Positions 30,785 to 50,254 of a stretch of 64,000 bases of DNA are shown here, one piece after another; position 1 is the first letter of the stretch; every line of letters starts with the position of its first letter. Location of the stretch: the NCBI GenBank assembly GCA_000165345.1, contig CM000429.1, positions 352,001 through 416,000 on the forward strand, in the 5' to 3' direction. The notes under the pieces were generated by a model that ran no database searches, was not told where the DNA came from, and saw only the letters and a program-made list of their open reading frames with translations. Position numbers and translations under genes: made by a program.

Positions 30785-30857
30785 TGCTCAAACCAGGATT
30801 CGAACCTGGGTCGCCGCGGCCACAACGCGGTGTACTAACCACCTATACGATTTGAGC
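30785..30857 (-). tRNA. tRNA-His: tRNA-His (anticodon GUG), 73 nt including discriminator A73.
   Basis: Reverse complement: GCTCAAA-TC-GTAT-AGGTGGTTA-GTAC-A-CCGCG-TTGTGGC-CGCGG-CGAC-CCAGG-TTCGAAT-CCTGG-TTTGAGC-A. This gives a perfect 7-bp acceptor stem, a GTTCGAATC T-loop, and the anticodon GTG at positions 34-36. Confidence 0.9.
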
Positions 30858-32023: not shown

Positions 32024-32041
32024 TTTTTTTTTTTTTTTTTT
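32024..32041. repeat. T18 homopolymer in the 5' intergenic region of the large PHD gene.
   Basis: Direct observation. Confidence 0.9.
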
Positions 32042-32330
32042 GGCTTTTCCTCTATCTATTTTTTAACTAGTATAACTTTATTTATTAAGCTGAAAGTAGT
32101 GAAATAGGATACATGCGATAGATCGTAATTATATCAAAATTTTGATGATAAATTAAACTTAAGTGATAAAACTCGCCTTTCTTAATTATTGATTAAAATG
32201 CGGTAGTATTGGCTGCATTACTCCAGCCCAAAGTCTATTCAATTTATTATATTATGATTCTATATTTCTTAAGCTAGCAAAAATAGATTATAAGGCTGTA
32301 TAAATTTTTAAAATAATATGACAAATAGAG

Positions 32331-35300
32331 ATGCTTCAAAGTAGTGGAAAATTAAGAAAGAGCATTCGCATAGAACCTAGTATTTATCAGGCATGGGTGC
32401 CTCCGATTTTTTCAGAGCCCAATCGCGAAGACGAAATAAAGATTTCATTTAAAAAGGTAAGTAAAATCTAATATATAAATATCCTACTGTGAATTTGTAC
32501 ATTTTCATTTACTTGTTCTAACTCCTTTTATTTATTTTCTTCAGTGCGAACGTTTATATGATCCGAACCTTGTTGAGAATGAACAAACTGATAAAAAAAC
32601 CGATGAAACCCTCAAAAATTTAAGATTTTTACTTAGGAGCATGGAAACTGATTTTAACTACCTCTCGGGAGAAAAAATATTGGAATATATGTCTAAAAAT
32701 GTGTCGGAATCGCAACGCTTTCCTTCCTATGCAGAAAAATTAATACTAACACGAGATGAGGATCTAAACGTAACTAGTATTTCTCCTATAAAATATAAAA
32801 CTGACTTGAATAGGATTAAATTATTCAAGGATGAGGTTTGCTGGTCCATCAATAAATCTCAAGACTCCATGACAACTCAAAATAAGAATTTATTAGACGA
32901 AACAAAAATATCTGGTAAGGCTATTAACGATAAATCATACGTGGATTCTAGCCCCATCTCCTATGGAAAACTTTGGGAAAAAACGATAAATCAACATATT
33001 TTTATTAGCATCATAGACAATTGGAAGAAAAGTGTTGGTTTTATATTTAATGATAGCTACAAGAACCTAAAATATACTTTGAACGAGGGAATTGAGCTGC
33101 TACAAGAGGGGATAGCACTAAATAATAAAATTAGACTTCCAGAATTGGAAACTCTCGTAAATGCTGTTGAAGAATCGCTAGCATTCGAAGAAAAAATCAA
33201 AAAATTACTCTCTATAGACGACCCAACAGTAAATTTAGGAGCTCTCAAGTCTCCTTGTAAGATCCCAATTACAGAGTTATGTGAACTATTGAAAGAAGGA
33301 GAAAGCTGTTCGTTTAGGTCAAACTATTTGGATTTCTTGAAATGCCAATTAGAAAAGTTGAAGTCATGGAGGAGCAATGTACAATCTGCAATAATTGAGA
33401 AAAATTTGGATAAGTGCAAAGACTTAATAAAAGATAAAGACGAGATACTTATAGAAGTTCCAGGAATAAATGACCTTACCGAGCAAATAGCAGCAAGCAA
33501 CTGGATTGAAAAGGTTGAAAGAAGCCTTAGCCGTCCAATGAAATTTAATTTTGCAGAAAATTTATTAAATGAGCCCGCATCAAAATTTTTGGATGAAAAA
33601 AATGTGGCAGCTAAACAACAATTAATTAATAGAGTCCAAAAGGCTCAAGAATGGCTCAATGTTGTTCAATCTCCACCTTTTATATATAGCTTAGTTTCTG
33701 CCTGCAAAACTACAGCTCCAAATGACATATCTGAAGTAACACAAAAAATTATTGATCAAGCAAAGATAGAAATGGAAGAATCTAAAAATTGGAAGCTCCC
33801 AAGACCTACTGAATATGAAAAAGTTTGGCTTGAAAGTTCCACACTCAAAATTATTATTCCTTTGATGAAATATATGGAGCCTGTATATTTACGTTGGAGA
33901 AAATGGAACAAGAAATATAAAAGACTTATGGATGGACTGTGCATTTATATGGAAGCACAACTTATTTTAGAGGAAGCAGAATATACATTATGCGACTATC
34001 TAGATATGAGTGAATACCTTCCAGAATTACGCAAAAAAATTAAAGAGAGTGGTGATTGGCTAAATACTAGCAAGGAGTTTCTCAACACGATCTCAGACTT
34101 TCACACAAAACAAGATATTAACAATGTATCTTCAAGTATTTGGAATACTGTTGCCGGTATAAAAAAAGGAAGTGAGTTTTCAAGGCTTGAAATTCAACAA
34201 GCTTTAGACTTCATGAACTCCCAGTTTCATGAACGCTTAAGTTATGAAAAACTGAAGCAATTAATAGAAATTGGAAACGAGCTTACTATATATGAAATGA
34301 CAATCTTGCAAGAACTTACGTCCTGTCAAGATAGCTGTGAAAAATGGCTCAAAAAGGGAAAAGAATATTTAAAATGCTCTAAGATATCTGGAATTAACAT
34401 TGCAATGGTAATAAGCCTGTTATTAGAGCGTAGCTGCATTCTTGTTTCAAAAGAAACAGAAGATTCTCTTTTTGCTGAATTGCATTTCATCATTTGGAAA
34501 ATGGACATTAATGAGATCCAAGCTCCTATTAATGACTACGAATTAAGTTCGCTTATTGAAAGATTTAATGAAGTGAAGTTATATTTTGACTTTGATCATT
34601 CTAACTTGGCAAAAACACAAAATGAAAATCAAACCCAACCTAATAAATTGATCGCTCTATCCTTACCTAATATAAAAAAAGAAAATGAAGAATCAGACCC
34701 TCAAAATAATGAAGAGTTATTAGCTCATCACTCAAGCGTATGCGAAAATAATACTACACAATCTGAAGCAAGCTATGATCCAAAAAGTCCTGAAATTAGC
34801 ATTGAAGAAATAGATATTCAACAAATAAATATTTCACACTGGAACCAGATTAAAGAACTAGAAGCTGCCGCATTTATTACAAAACTACAAAATATCTTAA
34901 TTTATTGGACCAACTTAATTCATGAGTATGAGACTGAAAAGAAAGAAGTTGAAGTTTGGCGTAGTATTTTGGAAGACCTCAAGCATCTTCCAATTTCATT
35001 TAATAAACTTGAATTAAAAATCAACAAAATAATAAGTGATTATGATCGAATTATTTCGATTCTAAAATGCGGAGATGAAGAGTCTAATCATTTGCCAGAT
35101 TTAAAACACCCGTTTTCACTTTTATATTCTTATAAGAGACTTAATGAACTAAATATTGAGGTTTCCAACCTACCAGTGAAAATTTCTGAATGGGACAAAT
35201 GGCAAAAACACTTGGATGAACTAAACCAATGTGATGATTATACCCTCTCAATGTTCTCTTATTTGAAAGAGACAGAAATTATAGTTTCAAATTGTGAAAG

Positions 35301-38300
35301 CACAAGTATTGAACAAATTGAGAGGAAAAAGGTGATGGATTACTTAAATAATATAAACGAAAGACTTGTTTCAAATTCTGTTTGGGGTATTACTGACTTC
35401 AAAAGAATTTTAATAGATTTGAAGTTTACAGGTAAACTGATTCAGGACTTATCTATTTGTGAGTGTTGGATAAAAAGTGTAAAGGGAGATTCCTCAAATG
35501 ATCCAATGGGAATCGAACATTGGAATAGCTTGCTTCAAAGAGGAAGAACAATTAGAATAATTGACCACGAAATTTTCAATAAATTCGAAGCTCAAGTTAA
35601 GCAGTCAATAGAATGGAATGAAATATACTTCACAGCTCTGCATTCGGATGCATTTTGCAAAGTTATAAAGTATAAAAGGAATAGTAAACCATCTAATAAG
35701 ATAATTTACGAAATTGCAGAACTTTTGGTTAGAGTAGATTATGGAATAGGCGAAAGACTCGTTACTTTTAGAGAGCTAAGACAGAGCGTAAATTCTTTTG
35801 TAGAACTACGTAACCAGGGAATTAAATATTTGAATATATGTATTAATGAAAGAAGAGATAAAGTTTTTTCTAGGTTATTAAATAAATATTTGAATCAATC
35901 CCAAGTTTCTACTCAACAAAACTCAGAAGTTATAGACCAAATAAATTCAATTAAGCAATTTACATCTGATTTAAAGAACCTCCTGGAAAGCTGTAATCAA
36001 CACACAATTTCTATGGATTTAATAAGTTATATACAAGATGAGATTCTATTGCGTGAAATCAATCAGAAAATGTTCAACGCACTAATTAATCAAGAAAATC
36101 CTTATTTCACAACAAATTTATATGGTTATTCTGCTGCTTCAAATGATTCAAAGATCCCCACATTCGATGAAGCAAATGATATTGTTAACTTTATTAGAAT
36201 TAATGATTTAAATATTATGCCAGAAAACTATTCAAACATAAATGAGACCAATGGCTCTCAAACTCAGCTTTCATTTGAAATTCATGAAAAAAGTCAGCTC
36301 ACAATCAAAGAGCTTAAAGAAATAGTTTTGAATTCTGAATCTGTTTTAATGAAGGGCCTTGATTCAACTGGAATGTTAATTGAAAAGAAATACATTGATG
36401 TTGATCTGTTCAAAAAATTTAGGAAAGCTGTATATATTTCTAGTGAATGGTTGAAAGTTTTCAAGATTAATCATTTTAACATAATTGATAACATAAAAGC
36501 TGAAAGTTTTTATAATAGAGAAGTTCCAAAAAACTTGTTATCACTTAACGTTAAATCTTCAATAGATTATTTGTTAAAAGAATATCTTAAGAGCCAAGTA
36601 AGTGAGCTCGTGATTAATTCAGTACCAGAAAAAGAATGTGCTATCAATCAAGTCAAATTTGAGTTAAATTGGAATCAAATCCTTGAAAGATTTAATGAGT
36701 TGGAGATGAATGATTTAATCCAATTTAAAGGGAAAAATAATGATATTATTAAGAGATTGTTACATACTTTTGAAGTGGCTGATGAACGCTTAGATGATTA
36801 TTCAACAAAGCTTGATGAGAATATTCTATGCAAAAATGAACAATCTTCCGAGGAAGTATTTTTTGATGACTATTCAAAATATAGTGCCCCTTTATTTTTA
36901 AACCTTTTGCATTATTTAAGGAATAATAAGAGTGCTTTATCGAATTTTGCCGATGAAAAATCTTACTATGAAAGCCTACTCAACTCTATTAAATCACATA
37001 TAAATCTTAAATATTGTATCCACTTATCCGATGAAGAAAGATTAAATATTCAACAATTCGAAGAAAGTTTAGGTGTCAGCAGTAATTATAGATTAAGCGA
37101 TACAGAATTACAGAAAAATGAAACCATACAGGATCCAAATATATCAACTCAAAATATAAAATACAAAAGAAATAAGAGATCTAAATCGCTAATTAATGGA
37201 GAAAGGGTTAATGAAGAAAACATTGATAGTATTATCAATATATTAAGGAATATTGAAATGCCAAGTATCGAATTATCTCTTTTCCTAATCAATTTTGGAA
37301 AAAAGTTTGTTAAATTTGAATTAAAAGAATTCTCAAATTTATGTAAAATGGTTGAATTTTCTTTGCTTTGGATGGCCTTAGTTATTACTAAATTCCCAAA
37401 TTTTATAAAAGCGAGCCTGGGAGATGATATCAGTGAAATAAGTGGCATTGAAGCAATAAAAAAACAAAATAGTCAATTAGTTTTTGAAGATTGGGAGAAA
37501 AATGTTTGTTTTGATTTTTTCAGTACAAACAATATTTGTCTCGGTACTATTAATACTGGCGAAATAGCAAACTCTCAATGTAAGCGTCTTCAAAATACTT
37601 TGGAACTCAAAGAATTCGTCTCTTTAATTGAGACATGCGATCAATTACCAATTCAAATACCAATTAAATCGAGGCTTGTAAATATTCTTGTGGATGCATT
37701 AAAATGGACAATCTCCGCTAGAGAAGCAATATTACTATTACCTAGAAATACAATATTATGTCCATGGGTACATATTGAAGGAATAGTGGAAGAAATTACT
37801 CTACGCTCAAAGAATAGTCAAATAATGAAAACTATTGGCCTTGATAAGAATATTTATAATATCAAAGATGAAGAAATTATGAATATCATATCAAACTTCA
37901 ACGCTAATGAATATGAAACTTGTTCTAATTTTGAAAAGAATGGTGAAGTAGACATTCAAGTTAAAAAACTTCCAAGGCCTAGAGGAAGACCTAAAAGAGA
38001 ACAGGTTTGTGTGACAAAAAACGAATCACAATTTGAAGATATATTTAATAATATATGCATGGATTACAAAGAAATAGATCGCTTGCCTAATTGCGTTTTT
38101 CCAAAGTCATTTTATTTGTGGTTGTTAAATGAAAACAACAATAAATATTTTAGTGTTCAAGATTTGATGTCTATTACATCCAAGGATGAAGATAATAAAA
38201 ATTCCAAATTAAATAATTCCCAAAACTGTAATTCAAACATTGGATGGGAGAACGGTTACTTTTATTGGAATAAAAGCGGTAGTTCAGCTTCAAAAGAATC

Positions 38301-41271
38301 CATTGTTGAAGATGACTGTGGAAGTGATTGTAAATTGCAATATATTGGATTGATTGATCCCCAAAATTATCCAAAGAAGGAGGTTTATAAAAGCAAATTA
38401 TTGTTAGATTTTATCCTTTGCATTGAAGTATACAATAACATTCAAAACAATCCTGCAGAGTTGTGTTCTATTTGTTCCAATTTCAGAAAACGAAAACATA
38501 CTAATAATATTTCACCTCTAAACTGTAACTCTAGCTGGATTGTTTGCGAAGAATGCAGCCGTTGGTACCACCAGGATTGCGTTGGGTATTCCTCCAAGTC
38601 AAATAATTTTCCAGAGAAGCTATCAAATGGTTCTAATTCAGCAAATGAATTGTCATCTTGGACTTGCCCATCGTGTAGTTTGAGGTCTTCAACTTCAATT
38701 GGTCGTTCTAATTCAATTATTAACTTATTAAAAAACAGCAATAATCTTGAACTTTTTCATAGTAATAATGCTTACATACTTTCGGATATACACTGTAAAT
38801 CTATTGATCGAGCAGAAAAGAATAAAACTTATGATAAATCATTAAAAAGAGAAGTCCCAACTTTAGAAAACCTTAAGCAAATCATGAAGAGCAGTTTCTC
38901 TGATAAAATTTCTTTCATTAGGCTTCATGAAAGAAACGTAATTGCAAATACATTTTATCTATTTAATGTTTGGGTGAATGACTTTTATAGAATATTAAAA
39001 TGGGACCCATTTGAGTTTTCTGAATTTAATTCTTCAGTTTTCTTTGATCCAGCTGAGATTCAAGAACGCATAATGAATAAACAAATACTGAAAGAAAAGA
39101 GTGATCTTCTGGATAAAGCTGAAGAAGACGAAAATTTATTAAAGGAAAAACATATAGAGCATGAACAAGCTGTTGCTATGTCTGATATTACGCAAACTAG
39201 CCGTAAAGGTAGACTACTTAAAAACAAATTATCAGCAAAGGAGATGCTAAATCCTAAATTGAATTCCATTAAACCAAAGAAGGGAAGAAAGAGACGCTTG
39301 CTATTCCCAAGTACAGTTACTAAAAAACAAATTAGAAGAAGTTTTCCCTGTATGATTGATAACTCAGCTGGCACTCTACAAATAAACTTTGAAACGGTCT
39401 TCAAGGATATCTCTCCCGGCTGTAAATATAATATCGATCTAGATTATATAGGCAAAAATAAAATAATTGAAGCTGGCTTATCAAAGCCTTTAGAAATTGA
39501 TGAAATTATGAATTTGTATATTATTGGGTCTCTAATTGGTTTGGACGGAGCTGTTGAATTTGAGTGGTTATACTGTATATTAAAATATTTGGTATTCTTC
39601 AATTCTAAATTCGGATTTTATAACGAAAACCTTGCGTTACTAAACAGTTTTCAGCTCTCTGAAGAATTATCATTTATCAATACTCTCAAAAATCAAAAAA
39701 GACTTTCTTGGGAGGAATTCAAATATATCTTAGTTCATTTTTCACCAAACTTTCCAATAAAGCTTAATTCTTGCAAAATTTTTTATTTGAATTTACCAAA
39801 GTTGAGATCGATAAAACTAAAATGTAAATCAATTTTAGATTATATTAAAAATTCTAGCCAGGAAAACCTTACAAAACCTCAAAGTATTGATCAAAATAAT
39901 CGAAATTTGTTTACAGATCACGAGCAACACAAACTAAATGGGAAAAACTTTAAAACTGAGTTAGAGTCATTGTTAATTGGCATCGTCAAATCTGGAATAA
40001 TCATTCCTGAAGAAAAGATTGTTTCCCATTTATTGTTCACATACTGTTTGGAATCTATTTTACTGCTATATGGAAAACAAATTTCAAGTGTATATTGTAA
40101 CCAACTTAATCCAAAACCTTTGCATTCAACATTAGTTAATATTAATCAACACATTTTATTTTGGAAAGAGTCAGATGCTAATCTTTCAAAGATATATGGA
40201 ACCAGATTCATTCCTCCAGAATATAATGGTTTTGTTTTAGAAAATGAAGGCTCATGTTTCCAAAATCAGGAAAACAAACCCTTGTTGCGCATTCAACGCT
40301 TTATTAAATATTGTGAAACAATTCAAGAATCAATAAATCAATGCAATGAATGGAATGAAAGATACAAATTTTTAATGGAAACACCAAATGAATTTGAGAT
40401 TTATGTTAAGTTTCTTAAGCAGGGGCTAAATCTACCTTGTATTTACCCTACTGTATATTCTTTTGGAAATATATTAGCTTCAATAGAGAGCTACGAAGAC
40501 TTTGTAAATCAAGTTTTTGAAAGCCCAAGTAATGCTAGCTCGCTTACAAAAGCTTCAAATCCTCCAGGTAGCTTCAAACCATCATTTGCGCAAACAGTTG
40601 GTGCTATAGTTGGCTCCAGCCAACCCTCACTGAACCCAAAATTTGAAAATATTCAAATATTAAAAAATGTAAGGGAGTTCTTAAAAGGACTTCCTATTCA
40701 GAAGAGTGATTTAATTTTAAAAATAGACCAAATGGAAGAAAATACCCAACGTTTTATTGAAGGTATCAAACAAAAAATGCCGCAATTAAAGCAACTTAGT
40801 TCAACTGAAGCGTTAATTTCCCAATTACAACTAATTAAAGAAGAAGCGATTCACAAAGTTCCAATAATTGTCAATAATGTGCCTGAACTTAGGGAGTTAT
40901 TGAGTAATATCCCTGATTTTGGCTCCCCTCATCACAACTTGTTATTAAGAACTCAATTTCTTATGTCATTACAATGCCCAATTGCCAAGTTAAGGAAGCC
41001 ACTCAATCCATTCCCAAATATCCCGGAAGCTTCTTCTAGCCTATCTAGTGTCGTTGGACAAAGCCAAAATAACGAACTTCATCAGTCAGAAACTAAAGGA
41101 GAACTTATGGACTCTCAAGGAAATAATTCTAACAAGTCAATCTTACATGCGCCTGGCGGCGCAAATAGTAAAATTAACACATCTTGCCAACTACCAAACA
41201 GTATGTCATTTATCTGGCAAAACTTAGTCCAACAGGGGAGTAATCCTATGAGTCATTACTATTATAAATAA
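32331..41271 (+). CDS. Very large (about 2918 aa) nuclear-type protein with an AT-hook and a PHD finger. It has two exons: 32331-32456 and 32545-41271.
   Basis: Exon 1 is ATG 32331...AAAAAG (42 codons, MLQSSGKLRKSIRIEPSIYQAWVPPIFSEPNREDEIKISFKK). Exon 2 begins at TGC 32545, is in frame with the long ORF 32641..41271, and has no stop between. The AT-hook RPRGRPKRE is at nt ~37977-38003. The PHD finger CSICSNFRK...CEECSRWYHQDC...CPSC is at nt ~38461-38680. Confidence 0.6.
32457..32544 (+). other. Spliceosomal intron (88 nt, GTAAGT...TTTTCTTCAG) in the large PHD/AT-hook gene.
   Basis: Canonical GTAAGT donor directly after codon 42. It has a pyrimidine tract plus a CAG acceptor and is AT-rich. 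Splicing joins phase-0 exons in frame. Confidence 0.6.
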
Positions 41272-41386: not shown

Positions 41387-42014
41387 ATGGAAAACTTAAT
41401 AATTATGTGGAGTTTAATGAAAAGTTGTTGTTATTCAATTGGAGGAAGCTCTTGCACAGATCCTGTCAATTTTAATGCAGATTGGTGTAGTTTGATACAT
41501 ACAAATGATGAGGAATCAAAAAATTTTCAATATAAGTTGAACTCCTCTAAAAGAGATGAATCTTCAGAAAACCAGAAAAAGATATCAATGAGCTCCACAG
41601 ATATTAATGATCTCGTAAACTATTTTATTAAATGCGCATTAAATGGAGTATCTGTCGATATTTATGATCAAGCAAGTCAGTCTTTTGTTTCAGGCAAATA
41701 TTTTATCAACAGAAATTTGAATATTATTACATTTAAGTCACCTGTACATACAATAATCATTCCATTTAAAGCTGTAAGTTTATACTGAGGTAAACTGTCC
41801 AATTCTTACAAAATCTTAGATAAATACACTCCTAAACAGTTCTGAATTTAACTACTTGTATTCAAACAGCCATAACATGTCAAGCGACCACAACAAGCAA
41901 ATTATTACGATTATTTTCGATTCTAATATGGAAAAAAGTGACACAATTCCAATTCTATTTAATGATCAAAGCTCCGCCAACAATTTCTTACTTGTGGTCG
42001 AGATTCTGAGGTAA
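41387..42014 (+). CDS. Candidate two-exon gene (exons 41387-41773 and 41820-42014, about 193 aa) with a 46-nt GTAAGT...TCTTAG intron. It is hypothetical and possibly a PH-like small domain protein.
   Basis: The unspliced ORF ends at TGA 41786. However, GTAAGT sits exactly at a codon boundary (41774). The acceptor cttacaaaatcttag (ending 41819) reopens the same frame for 64 more codons (INTLLNSSEF...IITIIFDSNMEKSDTIPILFNDQSSANNFLLVVEILR) up to TAA 42012-42014. Confidence 0.35.
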
Positions 42015-42339
42015 GCTGTAACTCAAATAACCCTGGAAAGCTATCTAACAGAATGCAGATACAATGAAATGAGCGACGAGAACTACAGGGAAAACTCAGA
42101 CGAGTCCATGGCTGAGAACAAAATTCCAAATTTGCAGTGAATTGAACAAGAGATAATAAAAGGTTAAGAAAAATGAAAATAATGAAAAAAAAGTACTGTT
42201 AGTTTAAAATACCTATTTAACAGCTTTCCTAGACTCGAGAAGATCCATAAAATCGATATTTATCTAACGTAATAAACTTATGTGAGAAACAGCTCCCATA
42301 GGATACGTAATTAATTATCACGTAGGATAATTTAACAGC

Positions 42340-47843: not shown

Positions 47844-49826
47844 TTAATGAGACGAAACATCTAGAAGGCTTATTTCATTAGAATGCTGTTCTAATCCATC
47901 ATTTATTCCGCTAGGTATTGGGTGAAAAACTCGTGTTTCAGAGTTTGAGTTGTTAGATACCATTACATCAGTTTTTTTTTTTTTATTATCTATTTTAAAT
48001 TCATTTGAACTATTTTTTTTTTTTATTTGCGGTAATCTCCTTTGTTTTGACCTCAAAGAATTCAAATAATACTTAATTGCTTTATAAACCGATTGCCAAT
48101 GCATAATACTTGACGTAGATTCACGAACAAAAGTTCCTTTTGAAGCAAGTCCATCTATTGATATAATTCCCTTTGACCAAGGTAATATTTCATTTGAACT
48201 TTTTTCTATTCTCTTTTCAATATGAAAAATAAATACTTCAAATTGTTCTTTGGAAAACTCCATTATTTGAGCAGGCCAAAATGTACACTTATAGTTTACC
48301 CATACTAACTCACCGATTTGAAATTTTGACCCTGGTTTAAGCTTATTTCCATGGGCTTTACAATAGTCACAAAACCAATCATTTTTTGTGATTTTATTCG
48401 CCTGGCTTTGACATGTCAGGTGATATATGTATCCACAATTTACGCACATATTCATACTCTCTTTCCCATTTCTTGGAACCTTACAAATATAGCACTTCCA
48501 TTCTGAATCTTTGGGTAATGAATGCCTAAAAAATACAGGAATATTTAATTGAAAGTTTTCGTCTTTTATATCGTTGTTAATAGAATTGCTCTCCGACTTT
48601 ATTGATTCGAGTTCTAATTCTATTTTTTCCGTTTTGTCACACCGTAAATTATTTAACAAGTTTTTCTGCTCAAGTAATTTCTCATTTGTCTCGCCTTTTA
48701 AATCTGAATTGTTTTGAAGAACTTTTTGTCCAATTCCAGCGAATATCATGTCAATTAGTTCTTCTTTTGTAATATCTTCGGATTTTTCATCAATAGAAAT
48801 CGAAATACCTGGATTTCTTCTTTTTAGTATTTTCGCAACAATATACTTAGGAAGGCAAGAAATTGCTGCATATAAATACATCTTGAAGTTCTCAACATCT
48901 ATTTTATCATTGTAAAAACTTGTATTCTCTATTTTTCCGTTTGAGTTTTTACTCGATTCGGATTTATTCGAATTTAAATTAGAACTTTTTTCCAATTCAA
49001 AAATGTGATTATTTCCATTAATTACTTTTCTTAGTGTATTGTATGTACTTAAATGATCCATTTCCTTATCGTCAAAATGAAATCTATTGTCAGAGTTGTA
49101 ATTAAATAGAGTTGTATCTTCATTTGTTGAGCTTTGAAAGCCAGAATTAATCTTTGAATTGTATTGACTATTCTCAGTATATTGAGTATCCACTAAAGAA
49201 TTTAATATTTGATTGTTTTGAAGTGATTTTTCTTTACTATTTGATAAATACTTATTTGAATTACTATTCTTGCAATTTTGAGAAATACTTTCGTATTGAG
49301 TATTTTGGAATGCTTTATAATAAATACATCTTCCTCTATGGCTTATAAATCCTTTGACACTAAAATAAATTTTCTTGCAATAAATACATCTCACTCTCAA
49401 ACTGGATTTAGTTGGAGTAAATGCATAATTGCATTCTACCTTGATTTTACCTTTTTTTATAGATACCTTTCCTTCTTGCCAGTTTAAATCTAAATTGTTT
49501 TTTGACTTGTTCTTGAAATCGGAATCGAAAGTTACATCTTGGCTCATCTTTCCCTTTAACGCTTCTAGTGAAATGCAATTTTGATTCCCTAACTCATCAA
49601 CCGGGCTCGCGCTATTATTATGGTTATTGTAATCATTGGAATTATTTGCCTTCTCAAGTAAATTAGAATTAAATTTTTCTTGCGTGTTAAATATATAATC
49701 GCTTGTTTGAGTGCAACCTTGGAATATCGAATTCCCCAGAAAATCTTTCTCTACTTCATTTATAGTTCGGATATCTGCAACAGTTTCTTTATTATTTTGA
49801 GAAGTGTTTAGGATATTAATAAACAT
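47844..49826 (-). CDS. Chromatin-reader-type protein with a PHD finger and a PWWP-like domain (660 aa).
   Basis: CYICKVPRNGKESMNMCVNCGYIYHLTCQ...WFCDYCK is a C4HC3 PHD finger. It is followed by IGELVWVNYKCTFWPAQIMEF, a PWWP-type motif. There is an extra C2HC-like cluster, CIYCKKIYFSVKGFISHRGRC. Confidence 0.65.
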   Translation of the reverse strand: MFINILNTSQNNKETVADIRTINEVEKDFLGNSIFQGCTQTSDYIFNTQEKFNSNLLEKANNSNDYNNHNNSASPVDELGNQNCISLEALKGKMSQDVTFDSDFKNKSKNNLDLNWQEGKVSIKKGKIKVECNYAFTPTKSSLRVRCIYCKKIYFSVKGFISHRGRCIYYKAFQNTQYESISQNCKNSNSNKYLSNSKEKSLQNNQILNSLVDTQYTENSQYNSKINSGFQSSTNEDTTLFNYNSDNRFHFDDKEMDHLSTYNTLRKVINGNNHIFELEKSSNLNSNKSESSKNSNGKIENTSFYNDKIDVENFKMYLYAAISCLPKYIVAKILKRRNPGISISIDEKSEDITKEELIDMIFAGIGQKVLQNNSDLKGETNEKLLEQKNLLNNLRCDKTEKIELELESIKSESNSINNDIKDENFQLNIPVFFRHSLPKDSEWKCYICKVPRNGKESMNMCVNCGYIYHLTCQSQANKITKNDWFCDYCKAHGNKLKPGSKFQIGELVWVNYKCTFWPAQIMEFSKEQFEVFIFHIEKRIEKSSNEILPWSKGIISIDGLASKGTFVRESTSSIMHWQSVYKAIKYYLNSLRSKQRRLPQIKKKNSSNEFKIDNKKKKTDVMVSNNSNSETRVFHPIPSGINDGLEQHSNEISLLDVSSH

Positions 49827-50254
49827 TGCGAACTTTTTAATAAAATCTTGATCGATTGCGCCCCCCTATTGTTTATTAGTGACTGTTTAATAATTACTCG
49901 TAATTAGTACAAAATTCAACTTACATCATGTTTTATTTCTCCATTTTCGAAATGACTTTGTGCGCTACTCATATTTTCCTTCTAAATACATTTGAAACGT
50001 GTCCGATCAAACCTAAGTTCTCATTAATTTGATGAAAATTCATTAATATTATTCTAGTCGCATGCAATCATTTATTTACCACTTCTTTCTTTCATGCATG
50101 CAACTAGTTAAACCCGCCATAATTTCGTGGGAACCTCGATAACATGCCAAATAACCCACTAATACATGAAAAATTGGTAGAAAATATACATTTATTATAG
50201 AAATGAAAGCTCAAAAGCTACTAAAATCTACAACCTACATCCTACAAAGAAAAG

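What the first reader, a model, noticed from the sequence alone, without database searches (positions are those of the whole stretch)
32331..32640. Unannotated 5' exon and 88-nt canonical intron extend the huge PHD/AT-hook gene
The six-frame track starts this gene at 32641. However, an ATG at 32331 opens a 42-codon exon that ends exactly at a GTAAGT donor (32457). A pyrimidine-rich tract and CAG acceptor (ending 32544) re-enter the same frame 32 codons upstream of the annotated ATG, with no intervening stop. Introns are rare in this genome type, so this one is likely to be missed by ORF-based annotation. It adds about 74 aa to the N-terminus of a protein of about 2900 aa that carries an AT-hook (RPRGRPKRE) and a PHD finger. 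That pairing suggests a chromatin-associated scaffold.
Basis: seen in the sequence. Interest (0 to 1): 0.5.

Follow-up and report, generated by a model that had tools for sequence, protein, structure and literature searches.

The report
Real but already annotated 5' intron

Summary
The window is Cryptosporidium parvum chromosome 1. Every coordinate in the finding checks out: ATG 32331, a 42-codon exon, a GTAAGT donor at 32457, an 88-nt intron with CTAAC, a pyrimidine tract and CAG ending at 32544, then 32 in-frame codons to the ORF ATG at 32641. Shuffled sequence gives such an arrangement in 3 of 5000 trials.

The spliced 2950-aa product is letter for letter identical to GenBank QOY43464.1 (CPATCC_000252), WKS76064.1 and WRK30556.1. 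Only the 2004 model (EAK88431.1, 2876 aa) and ORF-based gene calls lack exon 1.

The donor sits after codon 42, phase 0, in all ten Cryptosporidium species examined. Intron lengths are 66-88 nt, and all nine introns read through in frame hit a stop. Exon 1 is the best-conserved part of the protein (64% identity to C. muris, against 36% for the rest). It encodes an N-terminal motif ([IV]R.[DE]...YQA.V.P.F) that is recognisable in Theileria, Babesia, Besnoitia and Chromera homologues.

By-products:
- The C. bovis and C. xiaoi public models still lack this exon.
- The C. hominis UdeA01 and C. andersoni models use doubtful acceptors.
- An upstream ATG at -13 is conserved across the genus.
- A resemblance to the ELM2 domain is weak and failed every formal test.

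Verdict: real, ordinary, already known.

The parts
32318..32344 (+). Upstream ATG and an 8-codon out-of-frame uORF (MTNRDASK*) that overlaps the main start codon. It belongs to the transcript only if transcription starts upstream of 32318, which is not known.
   Evidence: Sequence. TAATATG at -13 and the uORF stop are kept in all 10 Cryptosporidium species examined.
32331..32456 (+). Coding exon 1: start codon plus 41 codons. Encodes the conserved N-terminal motif SIRIEPSIYQAWVPPIF.
   Evidence: Identical to the start of QOY43464.1. One variable site in 126 nt across 4 species. 64-86% aa identity to C. muris, C. bovis and C. canis.
32457..32544 (+). 88-nt GT-AG spliceosomal intron, phase 0: donor GTAAGT 32457-32462, CTAAC 32518-32522 (putative branch A at 32521), pyrimidine tract 32523-32541, acceptor CAG 32542-32544.
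   Evidence: Same position in 10 species, lengths 66-88 nt, with a 4-nt indel in C. meleagridis. In-frame stops on read-through and 22-30% GC in the nine introns analysed.
32545..32640 (+). The 5' part of exon 2 that the ORF-only model leaves out: 32 codons, CERLYDPNLV...LRFLLRS.
   Evidence: The C.[LV]Y.P motif just after the junction is conserved across the genus and seen in Theileria.
32641..41271 (+). Rest of exon 2, which is the 2876-aa ORF reported by six-frame translation, including the stop codon at 41269-41271.
33022..34092 (+). PLU-1-like helical domain (PF08429).
   Evidence: Pfam 49.3-58.9 bits against a cut-off of 28.5. The AlphaFold model is confident and all-helical over residues 180-560 of the spliced protein.
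37975..38001 (+). AT-hook-like motif RPRGRPKRE.
   Evidence: Sequence only. No Pfam AT-hook hit was reported.
38521..38676 (+). PHD finger (PF00628).
   Evidence: Pfam E 6.9e-06, 26.4 bits against a cut-off of 24.

Best explanation
Window 32331-41271 (+) is one two-exon protein-coding gene of Cryptosporidium parvum chromosome 1, listed as CPATCC_000252 in the IOWA-ATCC annotation. Transcription starts somewhere upstream of 32331. The spliceosome removes an ordinary 88-nt GT-AG intron (32457-32544). Translation from the ATG at 32331 then gives a 2950-aa nuclear-type protein. Its layout is: a short, probably disordered N-terminal region carrying a strongly conserved linear motif (encoded by exon 1 and the first codons of exon 2), a PLU-1-like helical domain, an AT-hook and one PHD finger. 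What is shown here: the signals, the frame, identity to curated models, and conservation of position and coding sequence across the genus. What is taken from the literature: the general statement that all introns in that annotation have RNA-seq support. What is inferred: that the N-terminal motif is a docking site for a partner protein, and that the protein acts as a chromatin scaffold.
For: 1. All signals and frames are as described.
2. Chance expectation is about 0.06%.
3. The spliced translation is an exact match to QOY43464.1, WKS76064.1, WRK30556.1 and the EukProt C. parvum entry.
4. The annotated gene in CP029780.1 spans exactly window 32331-41271 with this intron, and the window differs from that record at 1 of 13,941 bases.
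5. Baptista et al. 2022 (PMC8744675) state that introns of that annotation are 100% supported by RNA-seq.
6. The donor follows codon 42 in C. parvum, C. hominis, C. tyzzeri, C. meleagridis, C. canis, C. bovis, C. xiaoi, C. muris, C. andersoni and an unnamed Logan species. Intron lengths are 88, 88, 88, 84, 67, 79, 79, 66, 66 and 75 nt. The nine introns analysed are 22-30% GC and all carry in-frame stops.
7. Among four close species the intron is 13.6% variable plus a 4-nt indel, while exon 1 is 0.8% variable. The ORF averages 10.7 variable sites per 126 nt, and no ORF window has fewer than 2.
8. At larger distances the exon-1 amino acids are kept (86%, 71% and 64% identity, against 59%, 47% and 36% for the rest) while synonymous codons change. 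Against C. muris, 11 of 25 identical-aa codons are the same codon. This is the signature of coding constraint.
9. The exon-1 motif aligns with the N-termini of Theileria, Babesia, Besnoitia and Chromera homologues found by an exhaustive HMMER search.
Against: No RNA data could be examined here, so the RNA-seq support rests on a general statement in a paper and not on junction reads for this gene. The transcription start is unknown. An upstream out-of-frame ATG at 32318 would compete with the main ATG if it lies within the mRNA. Two public models use other acceptors: C. hominis UdeA01 with a 229-nt intron and C. andersoni with a 90-nt intron. Minor alternative splicing in those species therefore cannot be excluded. 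The functional statements (docking motif, chromatin scaffold) are inference only. The AlphaFold model is of low confidence for residues 1-177.
Confidence: 0.95

Rival explanations
1. The old single-exon model is right. Translation starts at the ATG at 32641, and the upstream 'exon' is an untranslated leader or a chance short ORF.
For: This is what the 2004 annotation (EAK88431.1 / XP_628004.1) and ORF callers give. The C. bovis and C. xiaoi public models also start at the equivalent Met.
Against: The exon-1 peptide is the best-conserved stretch of the protein across the genus and is recognisable in other apicomplexans and Chromera. Synonymous changes accumulate while the amino acids are kept. 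The 32 codons upstream of 32641 are also conserved as protein. The upstream DNA of C. bovis and C. xiaoi holds the same exon and intron.
Confidence: 0.02
2. The donor at 32457 is used, but with a different acceptor. One option is the C. hominis UdeA01 model (CUV04106.1, 2903 aa), which joins exon 1 to YMSKNV and implies a 229-nt intron. The other is regulated alternative splicing or intron retention.
For: CUV04106.1 and the C. andersoni model OII71517.1 show that annotators have picked other in-frame AGs. C. hominis, C. tyzzeri and C. meleagridis have GGAG|TAT at that site.
Against: C. parvum has GGAA at that site, so there is no AG. The alternative would delete 47 residues that include the columns F79, N80, S83 and E85, which are invariant as far out as Chromera. 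CAG 32542-32544, with its pyrimidine tract and CTAAC, is kept in the close species. Later C. hominis models (PPS96948.1, KAL3129866.1) are 2950 aa.
Confidence: 0.02
3. The conservation of exon 1 reflects a DNA- or RNA-level element, such as a promoter, a leader structure or an overlapping uORF, and not protein coding.
For: There are no synonymous changes in 40 codons among four close species, modestly more conserved than the rest of the gene (Fisher p 0.014-0.02). A conserved uORF overlaps the first four codons.
Against: Against C. bovis and C. muris the synonymous sites of exon 1 are as diverged as elsewhere in the gene (57% and 44% same codon, against 48% and 45%) while the amino acids stay. 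Rfam finds nothing there. Nucleotide constraint from the uORF could add to coding constraint over the first 14 nt, but it cannot replace it.
Confidence: 0.01

Closest known systems
C. parvum IOWA-ATCC gene CPATCC_000252 (QOY43464.1; also WKS76064.1 and WRK30556.1), named 'PHD-finger/AT hook containing chromatin protein'
   Same: Identical 2950-aa product, same start codon, same 88-nt intron and same stop.
   Different: Nothing. This is the same gene model.
C. parvum Iowa II 2004 model EAK88431.1 / XP_628004.1, 'chromatin protein with an AT hook and a PHD finger domain at the C-terminus'
   Same: Same locus, same 2876-aa ORF.
   Different: Lacks exon 1, the intron and the first 32 codons of exon 2, and so lacks the conserved N-terminal motif.
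KDM5 / JARID1 / PLU-1 histone demethylases
   Same: Shares a PLU-1-like helical domain (PF08429, above the Pfam cut-off) and a PHD finger.
   Different: Pfam finds no JmjN, ARID, JmjC or C5HC2 domain in the 2876-aa ORF product (E up to 0.01) or in the first 700 residues of the spliced protein (E up to 10). There is no significant sequence match or fold match to any solved KDM5 structure. It is not a demethylase by any test made here.
Apicomplexan and chromerid 'PLU-1 family' or 'lysine-specific demethylase-like domain' proteins (Theileria equi XP_004833557.1, Babesia bovis XP_001610738.1, Besnoitia XP_029216712.1, Chromera Cvel_6656)
   Same: An N-terminal [IV]R.[DE]...[YR]QA.V.P.F motif followed by a PLU-1-like domain.
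   Different: Lengths differ widely, from 770 to 4860 aa. The piroplasm proteins are short. The T. equi gene has its introns at other positions, codons 94 and 140. None has a tested function that I could find.
ELM2 domain (PF01448) of MTA1, CoREST and MIER, and the apicomplexan 'extended ELM2' (EELM2) proteins of MORC/HDAC complexes
   Same: Motif-level resemblance: IR[IV]..YQA.VP, then [LV]Y.P, then a helix. There is a weak Pfam ELM2 hit over residues 18-66, which spans the splice junction. The region is predicted to be disordered on its own, as the ELM2 N-terminal arm is, to my knowledge.
   Different: The score is below the Pfam cut-off (15.3 against 21.7 bits). Only 2 of 15 family members hit ELM2. 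No SANT domain follows. The profile search of PDB sequences, hhalign against the published EELM2 alignment and the large-database profile search were all negative.

Membership tests
GT-AG (U2-type) spliceosomal intron | GT at the 5' end with a consensus-like donor | tested here: met
   GTAAGT at 32457-32462. GTAAGT or GTACGT at the same position in 10 species.
GT-AG (U2-type) spliceosomal intron | AG at the 3' end preceded by a pyrimidine tract and a branch-point-like YTRAY | tested here: met
   CTAAC at 32518-32522, pyrimidine tract, CAG ending 32544. C. muris and C. andersoni lack a YTRAY match.
   The spliced product is 2950 aa with a single terminal stop. Read-through stops after 4 codons. 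In-frame stops in all nine introns analysed.
GT-AG (U2-type) spliceosomal intron | Position and phase conserved in orthologues, with the intron evolving faster than its flanks and taking indels that are not multiples of 3 | tested here: met
   Phase 0 after codon 42 in 10 species. Lengths 66-88 nt. 13.6% variable sites in the intron against 0.8% in exon 1. A 4-nt indel in C. meleagridis.
GT-AG (U2-type) spliceosomal intron | Spliced RNA observed | not testable with these tools
   No read data are available here. Baptista et al. 2022 (PMC8744675) state that all introns of the annotation holding this model are supported by RNA-seq.
KDM5/JARID1 demethylases | JmjC catalytic domain, with JmjN, ARID and a C5HC2 zinc finger | tested here: not met
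   A Pfam scan of the 2876-aa ORF product (E up to 0.01) reports only PLU-1 and PHD. A scan of the first 700 residues of the spliced protein at E up to 10 adds only two sub-threshold chance hits. The sequence search of PDB entries is empty.
PLU-1-like domain proteins (PF08429) | Match to the Pfam model above the gathering score | tested here: met
   49.3 bits for the ORF and 58.9 bits for the spliced N-terminus, against a cut-off of 28.5.
PHD finger proteins (PF00628) | Match above the gathering score, with a Cys4-His-Cys3 pattern | tested here: met
   26.4 bits against 24. CSICS...CEECSRWYHQDC...CPSC is seen in the sequence.
AT-hook proteins | GRP core flanked by basic residues | tested here: inconclusive
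   RPRGRPKRE is present, but no Pfam AT-hook match was returned. DNA binding was not tested.
ELM2 domain (PF01448) | Match to the Pfam model above the gathering score | tested here: not met
   15.3 bits, E 0.038, against a cut-off of 21.7. Only 2 of 15 family members give any hit.
ELM2 domain (PF01448) | Usually followed by a SANT domain; binds class I HDAC | tested here: not met
   No SANT or Myb hit in Pfam. HDAC binding cannot be tested here.
Apicomplexan EELM2 domain (Oehring et al. 2012) | Profile similarity to the published EELM2 alignment | tested here: not met
   hhalign of the family N-terminus against 11 sequences from Additional file 18 of PMC4053738 gave probability 0.2% and E 0.3, over 15 columns only.

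The most novel reading that the evidence does not exclude
Exon 1 and the first codons of exon 2 encode a previously unrecognised, very divergent ELM2-like docking arm ([IV]R.[DE]...YQA.V.P.F, then [LV]Y.P). This arm would define an alveolate family of PLU-1/PHD scaffolds and recruit a partner such as a class I histone deacetylase. Its translation would be gated by a genus-conserved uORF that overlaps the start codon. The 2004 single-exon model and today's C. bovis and C. xiaoi models would then have cut off the functionally most important part of the protein.
Probability: 0.2. Interest if true: 0.4.

Novelty: already known. Interest (0 to 1): 0.12.

Why it matters
For C. parvum this changes nothing, because the current reference annotations already contain this exact model. 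The practical value is small and is about curation.

1. It shows that sequence reading alone can recover a correct splice model in an intron-poor genome.
2. The same 5' exon is still missing from the public C. bovis (KAH7646903.1 / XP_067181782.1) and C. xiaoi (KAK6587645.1) models.
3. The C. hominis UdeA01 and C. andersoni models use acceptors that delete conserved residues.
4. Anyone still using the 2004 cgd1 protein would miss the most conserved 74 residues. That matters for orthology searches, epitope tagging at the N-terminus, and knock-out design.
5. The conserved N-terminal motif and the conserved upstream ATG are leads for work on an uncharacterised apicomplexan chromatin protein family.

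Tried and rejected
- Word-indexed homologue search with the first 700 aa of the spliced protein returned nothing, although identical proteins are in that collection. I treated this as a limit of the tool. The exact-match look-up and the exhaustive HMMER search gave the answers instead.
- Initial idea that the window is an ascomycete yeast, because of GTAAGT and CTAAC. Rejected: neighbouring genes encode E2F/DP, DDRGK and ephrin-receptor-like proteins, and the exact matches are to Cryptosporidium.
- Sequence search of PDB entries with the ORF: no hit.
- ELM2 or EELM2 homology of the N-terminus. The only support is a sub-threshold Pfam hit. The per-member Pfam scan, the profile search against PDB sequences, hhalign against the published EELM2 alignment and the profile search of the 5.8-billion-protein database were all negative. 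Kept only as a lead.
- AlphaFold2 model of residues 1-620. The exon-1 region is low confidence (pLDDT below 50 for residues 1-177), so it gives no structural insight. Foldseek of the model against the PDB found nothing at E <= 0.001.
- An ancient intron shared with piroplasms. Rejected: the T. equi homologue has introns at codons 94 and 140, and none at the homologous site.
- A purely nucleotide-level explanation for the conservation of exon 1. Rejected, because synonymous sites diverge normally against C. bovis and C. muris.
- Literature searches for this gene or for its Toxoplasma or Plasmodium counterparts found no functional study. A possible link to TgPHD1/PfPHD1 could not be tested and is not claimed.
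- Supplementary files of Baptista et al. 2022 are not held, so gene-level RNA-seq support could not be read.
- Rfam scan of the whole window: only tRNA-His.
Full report
**1. The observation**

- An ATG at 32331 opens a 42-codon exon (MLQSSGKLRKSIRIEPSIYQAWVPPIFSEPNREDEIKISFKK).
- The exon ends directly at GTAAGT (32457-32462).
- The next 88 nt are 23% G+C. They hold CTAAC (32518-32522), a pyrimidine-rich run and CAG (32542-32544).
- From 32545 the frame of the big ORF is open for 32 codons up to the ATG at 32641. That ATG is where a stop-to-stop ORF list starts the gene (32641-41271, 2876 aa).
- Unspliced, the exon-1 frame stops after four more codons, and the ORF frame is closed at 32476.
- Splicing gives a 2950-aa product.

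In 5000 dinucleotide-preserving shuffles of the 500 nt upstream of 32641, an equivalent arrangement arose 3 times, and 23 times with a loose donor pattern. Of 24 long ORFs in the window, only this one and one other have such an upstream model.

**2. Where the window comes from**

Neighbouring ORFs encode E2F/DP, DDRGK, bystin, an insulinase-type peptidase and an ephrin-receptor-like repeat protein. The window is 31.5% G+C and gene-dense.

An exact-sequence look-up settled the origin. The 2876-aa ORF product is EAK88431.1 / XP_628004.1 of Cryptosporidium parvum Iowa II. The bystin neighbour is also an exact C. parvum match. The window differs at 1 of 13,941 compared bases from C. parvum record CP029780.1.

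**3. The model is already annotated**

It also equals WKS76064.1, WRK30556.1 and the EukProt C. parvum entry.

In CP029780.1 the annotated gene spans 8941 nt. That corresponds exactly to window 32331-41271, and removing the 88-nt GTAAGT...CAG intron reproduces the deposited protein.

The paper describing the IOWA-ATCC annotation reports 1926 gene-model updates and says its introns are 100% supported by RNA-seq (PMC8744675). The earlier re-annotation raised intron-containing genes from 4.3% to 10.8%, with a mean intron length of 99 nt and 22% G+C (PMC4637869). This intron fits those figures. I could not see gene-level read evidence, because the supplements are not held.

ORF-based calls on a Logan assembly split the gene into a 46-aa and a 2876-aa product.

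**4. Comparative test**

I fetched the orthologous loci of nine further species:
- C. hominis, C. tyzzeri and C. meleagridis;
- C. canis, C. xiaoi, C. bovis and C. muris;
- C. andersoni;
- an unnamed species from a Logan assembly.

In all ten species, exon 1 is 42 codons and is followed at once by GTAAGT, or GTACGT in the gastric clade. Intron lengths are 88, 88, 88, 84, 67, 79, 79, 66, 66 and 75 nt. All ten introns end in YAG. The nine analysed are 22-30% G+C and all contain in-frame stops.

Among the four closest species:

| Region | Variable sites |
|---|---|
| Intron | 13.6%, plus a 4-nt indel |
| Intergenic DNA upstream | 12.3% |
| ORF | 8.3% |
| Exon 1 | 0.8% (1 of 126 nt) |

No 126-nt window of the 8.6-kb ORF is as conserved as exon 1.

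Over larger distances the pattern is that of a coding sequence under strong selection:

| Comparison with C. parvum | Exon-1 aa identity | Rest of protein |
|---|---|---|
| C. canis | 86% | 59% |
| C. bovis | 71% | 47% |
| C. muris | 64% | 36% |

Synonymous codons diverge as elsewhere in the gene. Against C. muris, 11 of 25 identical-aa codons in exon 1 are the same codon, compared with 45% in the rest.

The T. equi homologue has introns at other positions, so the intron is not shared with piroplasms.

**5. Other public models of the same gene**

- C. hominis UdeA01 (CUV04106.1, 2903 aa) keeps exon 1 but joins it to YMSKNV, using an AG (GGAG|TAT). C. parvum lacks that AG and has GGAA. The choice removes 47 residues, including positions invariant as far out as Chromera.
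- C. andersoni (OII71517.1) uses an acceptor 24 nt further downstream than C. muris, dropping AKCLYNPK. The 66-nt acceptor is present there too.
- C. bovis (KAH7646903.1 / XP_067181782.1) and C. xiaoi (KAK6587645.1) start at MRSMETDFN. Their upstream DNA holds the same exon 1 (MLQSSGKLRKSIRVEPSLYQAWVPPFF...) and a 79-nt GTAAGT...CTAG intron. This gives corrected products of 2880 and 2877 aa.

**6. What the extension adds**

An exhaustive HMMER search with the first 700 residues found 18 representatives. They are Cryptosporidium orthologues and 'PLU-1 family' proteins of Theileria, Babesia, Besnoitia, Cardiosporidium and Chromera.

Their N-termini share a motif, [IV]R.[DE]...[YR]QA.V.P.F, that lies entirely in exon 1. 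A [LV]Y.P element follows just after the splice junction, and an F-N-x-[LI]-S-x-E element lies a little further on.

An AlphaFold2 model built from a 12-sequence alignment is confident and helical for residues 180-560, the PLU-1-like domain. It is of low confidence for residues 1-177. That fits a linear docking motif in a flexible arm, but it proves nothing. Foldseek against the PDB found no significant match.

Pfam gives a weak ELM2 hit for residues 18-66, spanning the junction (E 0.038, 15.3 bits, cut-off 21.7). The motif does resemble the ELM2 signature. However:
- only 2 of 15 family members give any ELM2 hit;
- a family profile finds no ELM2 protein among PDB sequences or in the large protein database;
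- hhalign against the published apicomplexan 'extended ELM2' alignment is not significant.

I therefore do not file the protein as an ELM2 or EELM2 protein. It remains a lead.

The protein is not a KDM5 demethylase either. Pfam finds only PLU-1 and PHD, and there is no JmjC.

**7. Mechanism and confidence**

The best explanation is an ordinary, constitutively spliced GT-AG intron in the 5' coding region of a two-exon gene (confidence 0.95).

The signals, the frame, the identity with curated models and the evolutionary signature are shown here. RNA support is taken from the literature. The role of the N-terminal motif is inferred.

The rivals each get about 1-2%, for the reasons given above. 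They are the single-exon model, a different acceptor, and a non-coding conserved element.

**8. Verdict**

The feature is already in the current C. parvum, C. hominis, C. tyzzeri, C. meleagridis, C. canis and C. muris annotations, so novelty is 'already known' and interest is low.

The modest new points are the two still-truncated models, the two doubtful acceptors, the deep conservation of the exon-1 motif, and a conserved upstream ATG (see the items noticed in passing).

Noticed in passing
window 32318-32344 (+); same offset in L002-L004, L006-L009, L011, L012: An out-of-frame ATG lies 13 nt upstream of the main start codon and opens an 8-codon uORF (MTNRDASK*) that ends 11 nt inside the main ORF. 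'TAATATG' at -13 and the uORF stop are kept in all ten Cryptosporidium species, although the rest of the upstream DNA cannot be aligned between clades. This could be translational control by leaky scanning, or part of a start-site element. The transcription start is unknown.
   Followed up: partly
L008 1209-1500 (C. bovis VHIT02000054.1) and L007 1209-1500 (C. xiaoi JAWDEY010000036.1): The public gene models (KAH7646903.1 / XP_067181782.1 and KAK6587645.1) start at MRSMETDFN. The same 42-codon exon 1 and a 79-nt GTAAGT...CTAG intron lie just upstream, unannotated. The corrected products would be 2880 and 2877 aa.
   Followed up: yes
L004 about 2627-2855 (C. hominis UdeA01 LN877947.1); L011 1127-1216 (C. 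andersoni): These two public models use the shared donor but different in-frame acceptors, giving 229-nt and 90-nt introns. Both delete residues that are conserved in the family. The C. hominis alternative AG (GGAG|TAT) is absent from C. parvum (GGAA, window 32682-32685).
   Followed up: yes
window 41405-42140 (+): The next gene downstream is annotated in CP029780.1 as a 213-aa product spread over 736 nt, which implies about 94 nt of intron (two GTAAG-type candidates are visible). The plain ORF there (41387-41788) is 133 aa. The C. tyzzeri (133 aa) and C. hominis UdeA01 (152 aa) models differ from it, so annotation of this gene is inconsistent between species.
   Followed up: partly
window 47844-49972 (-): This is the only other long ORF in the window with a 5' exon-intron model of the same kind: ATG 49972, a 16-codon exon, a 59-nt intron from 49924 to 49866 (GTAAGT...CACTAATAAACAATAG), then 13 in-frame codons before the ORF ATG at 49826.
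   Followed up: partly
window 32331-32456: Among C. parvum, C. hominis, C. tyzzeri and C. meleagridis, exon 1 has no synonymous change in 40 degenerate codons. About 10% of such codons differ from C. meleagridis in the rest of the gene (Fisher p 0.014). The excess conservation disappears in comparisons with C. bovis and C. muris.
   Followed up: yes
window 32331-32640; proteins P0025, P0026, P0027, P0032, P0033, P0036, P0038: The N-terminal motif [IV]R.[DE]...[YR]QA.V.P.F followed by a PLU-1-like domain is shared by uncharacterised proteins of Theileria, Babesia, Besnoitia, Chromera and unnamed metagenomic eukaryotes. It looks like the ELM2 signature but fails every formal ELM2 and EELM2 test.
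   Followed up: yes
window 30785-30857 (-): tRNA-His (GTG anticodon) lies between the RPA43-like gene and the 165-aa gene upstream of the locus. It is the only Rfam or ARAGORN hit in the 64-kb window.
   Followed up: no
window 32043: This is the single base difference between the window and C. parvum record CP029780.1 over 13,941 compared bases. It sits next to the long T run at about 32024-32041 in the intergenic region.
   Followed up: no
tool behaviour: The word-indexed homologue search found nothing for the first 700 residues, although identical and 97%-identical proteins are in the same collection. An empty result from that tool should not be read as absence for this gene family.
   Followed up: no
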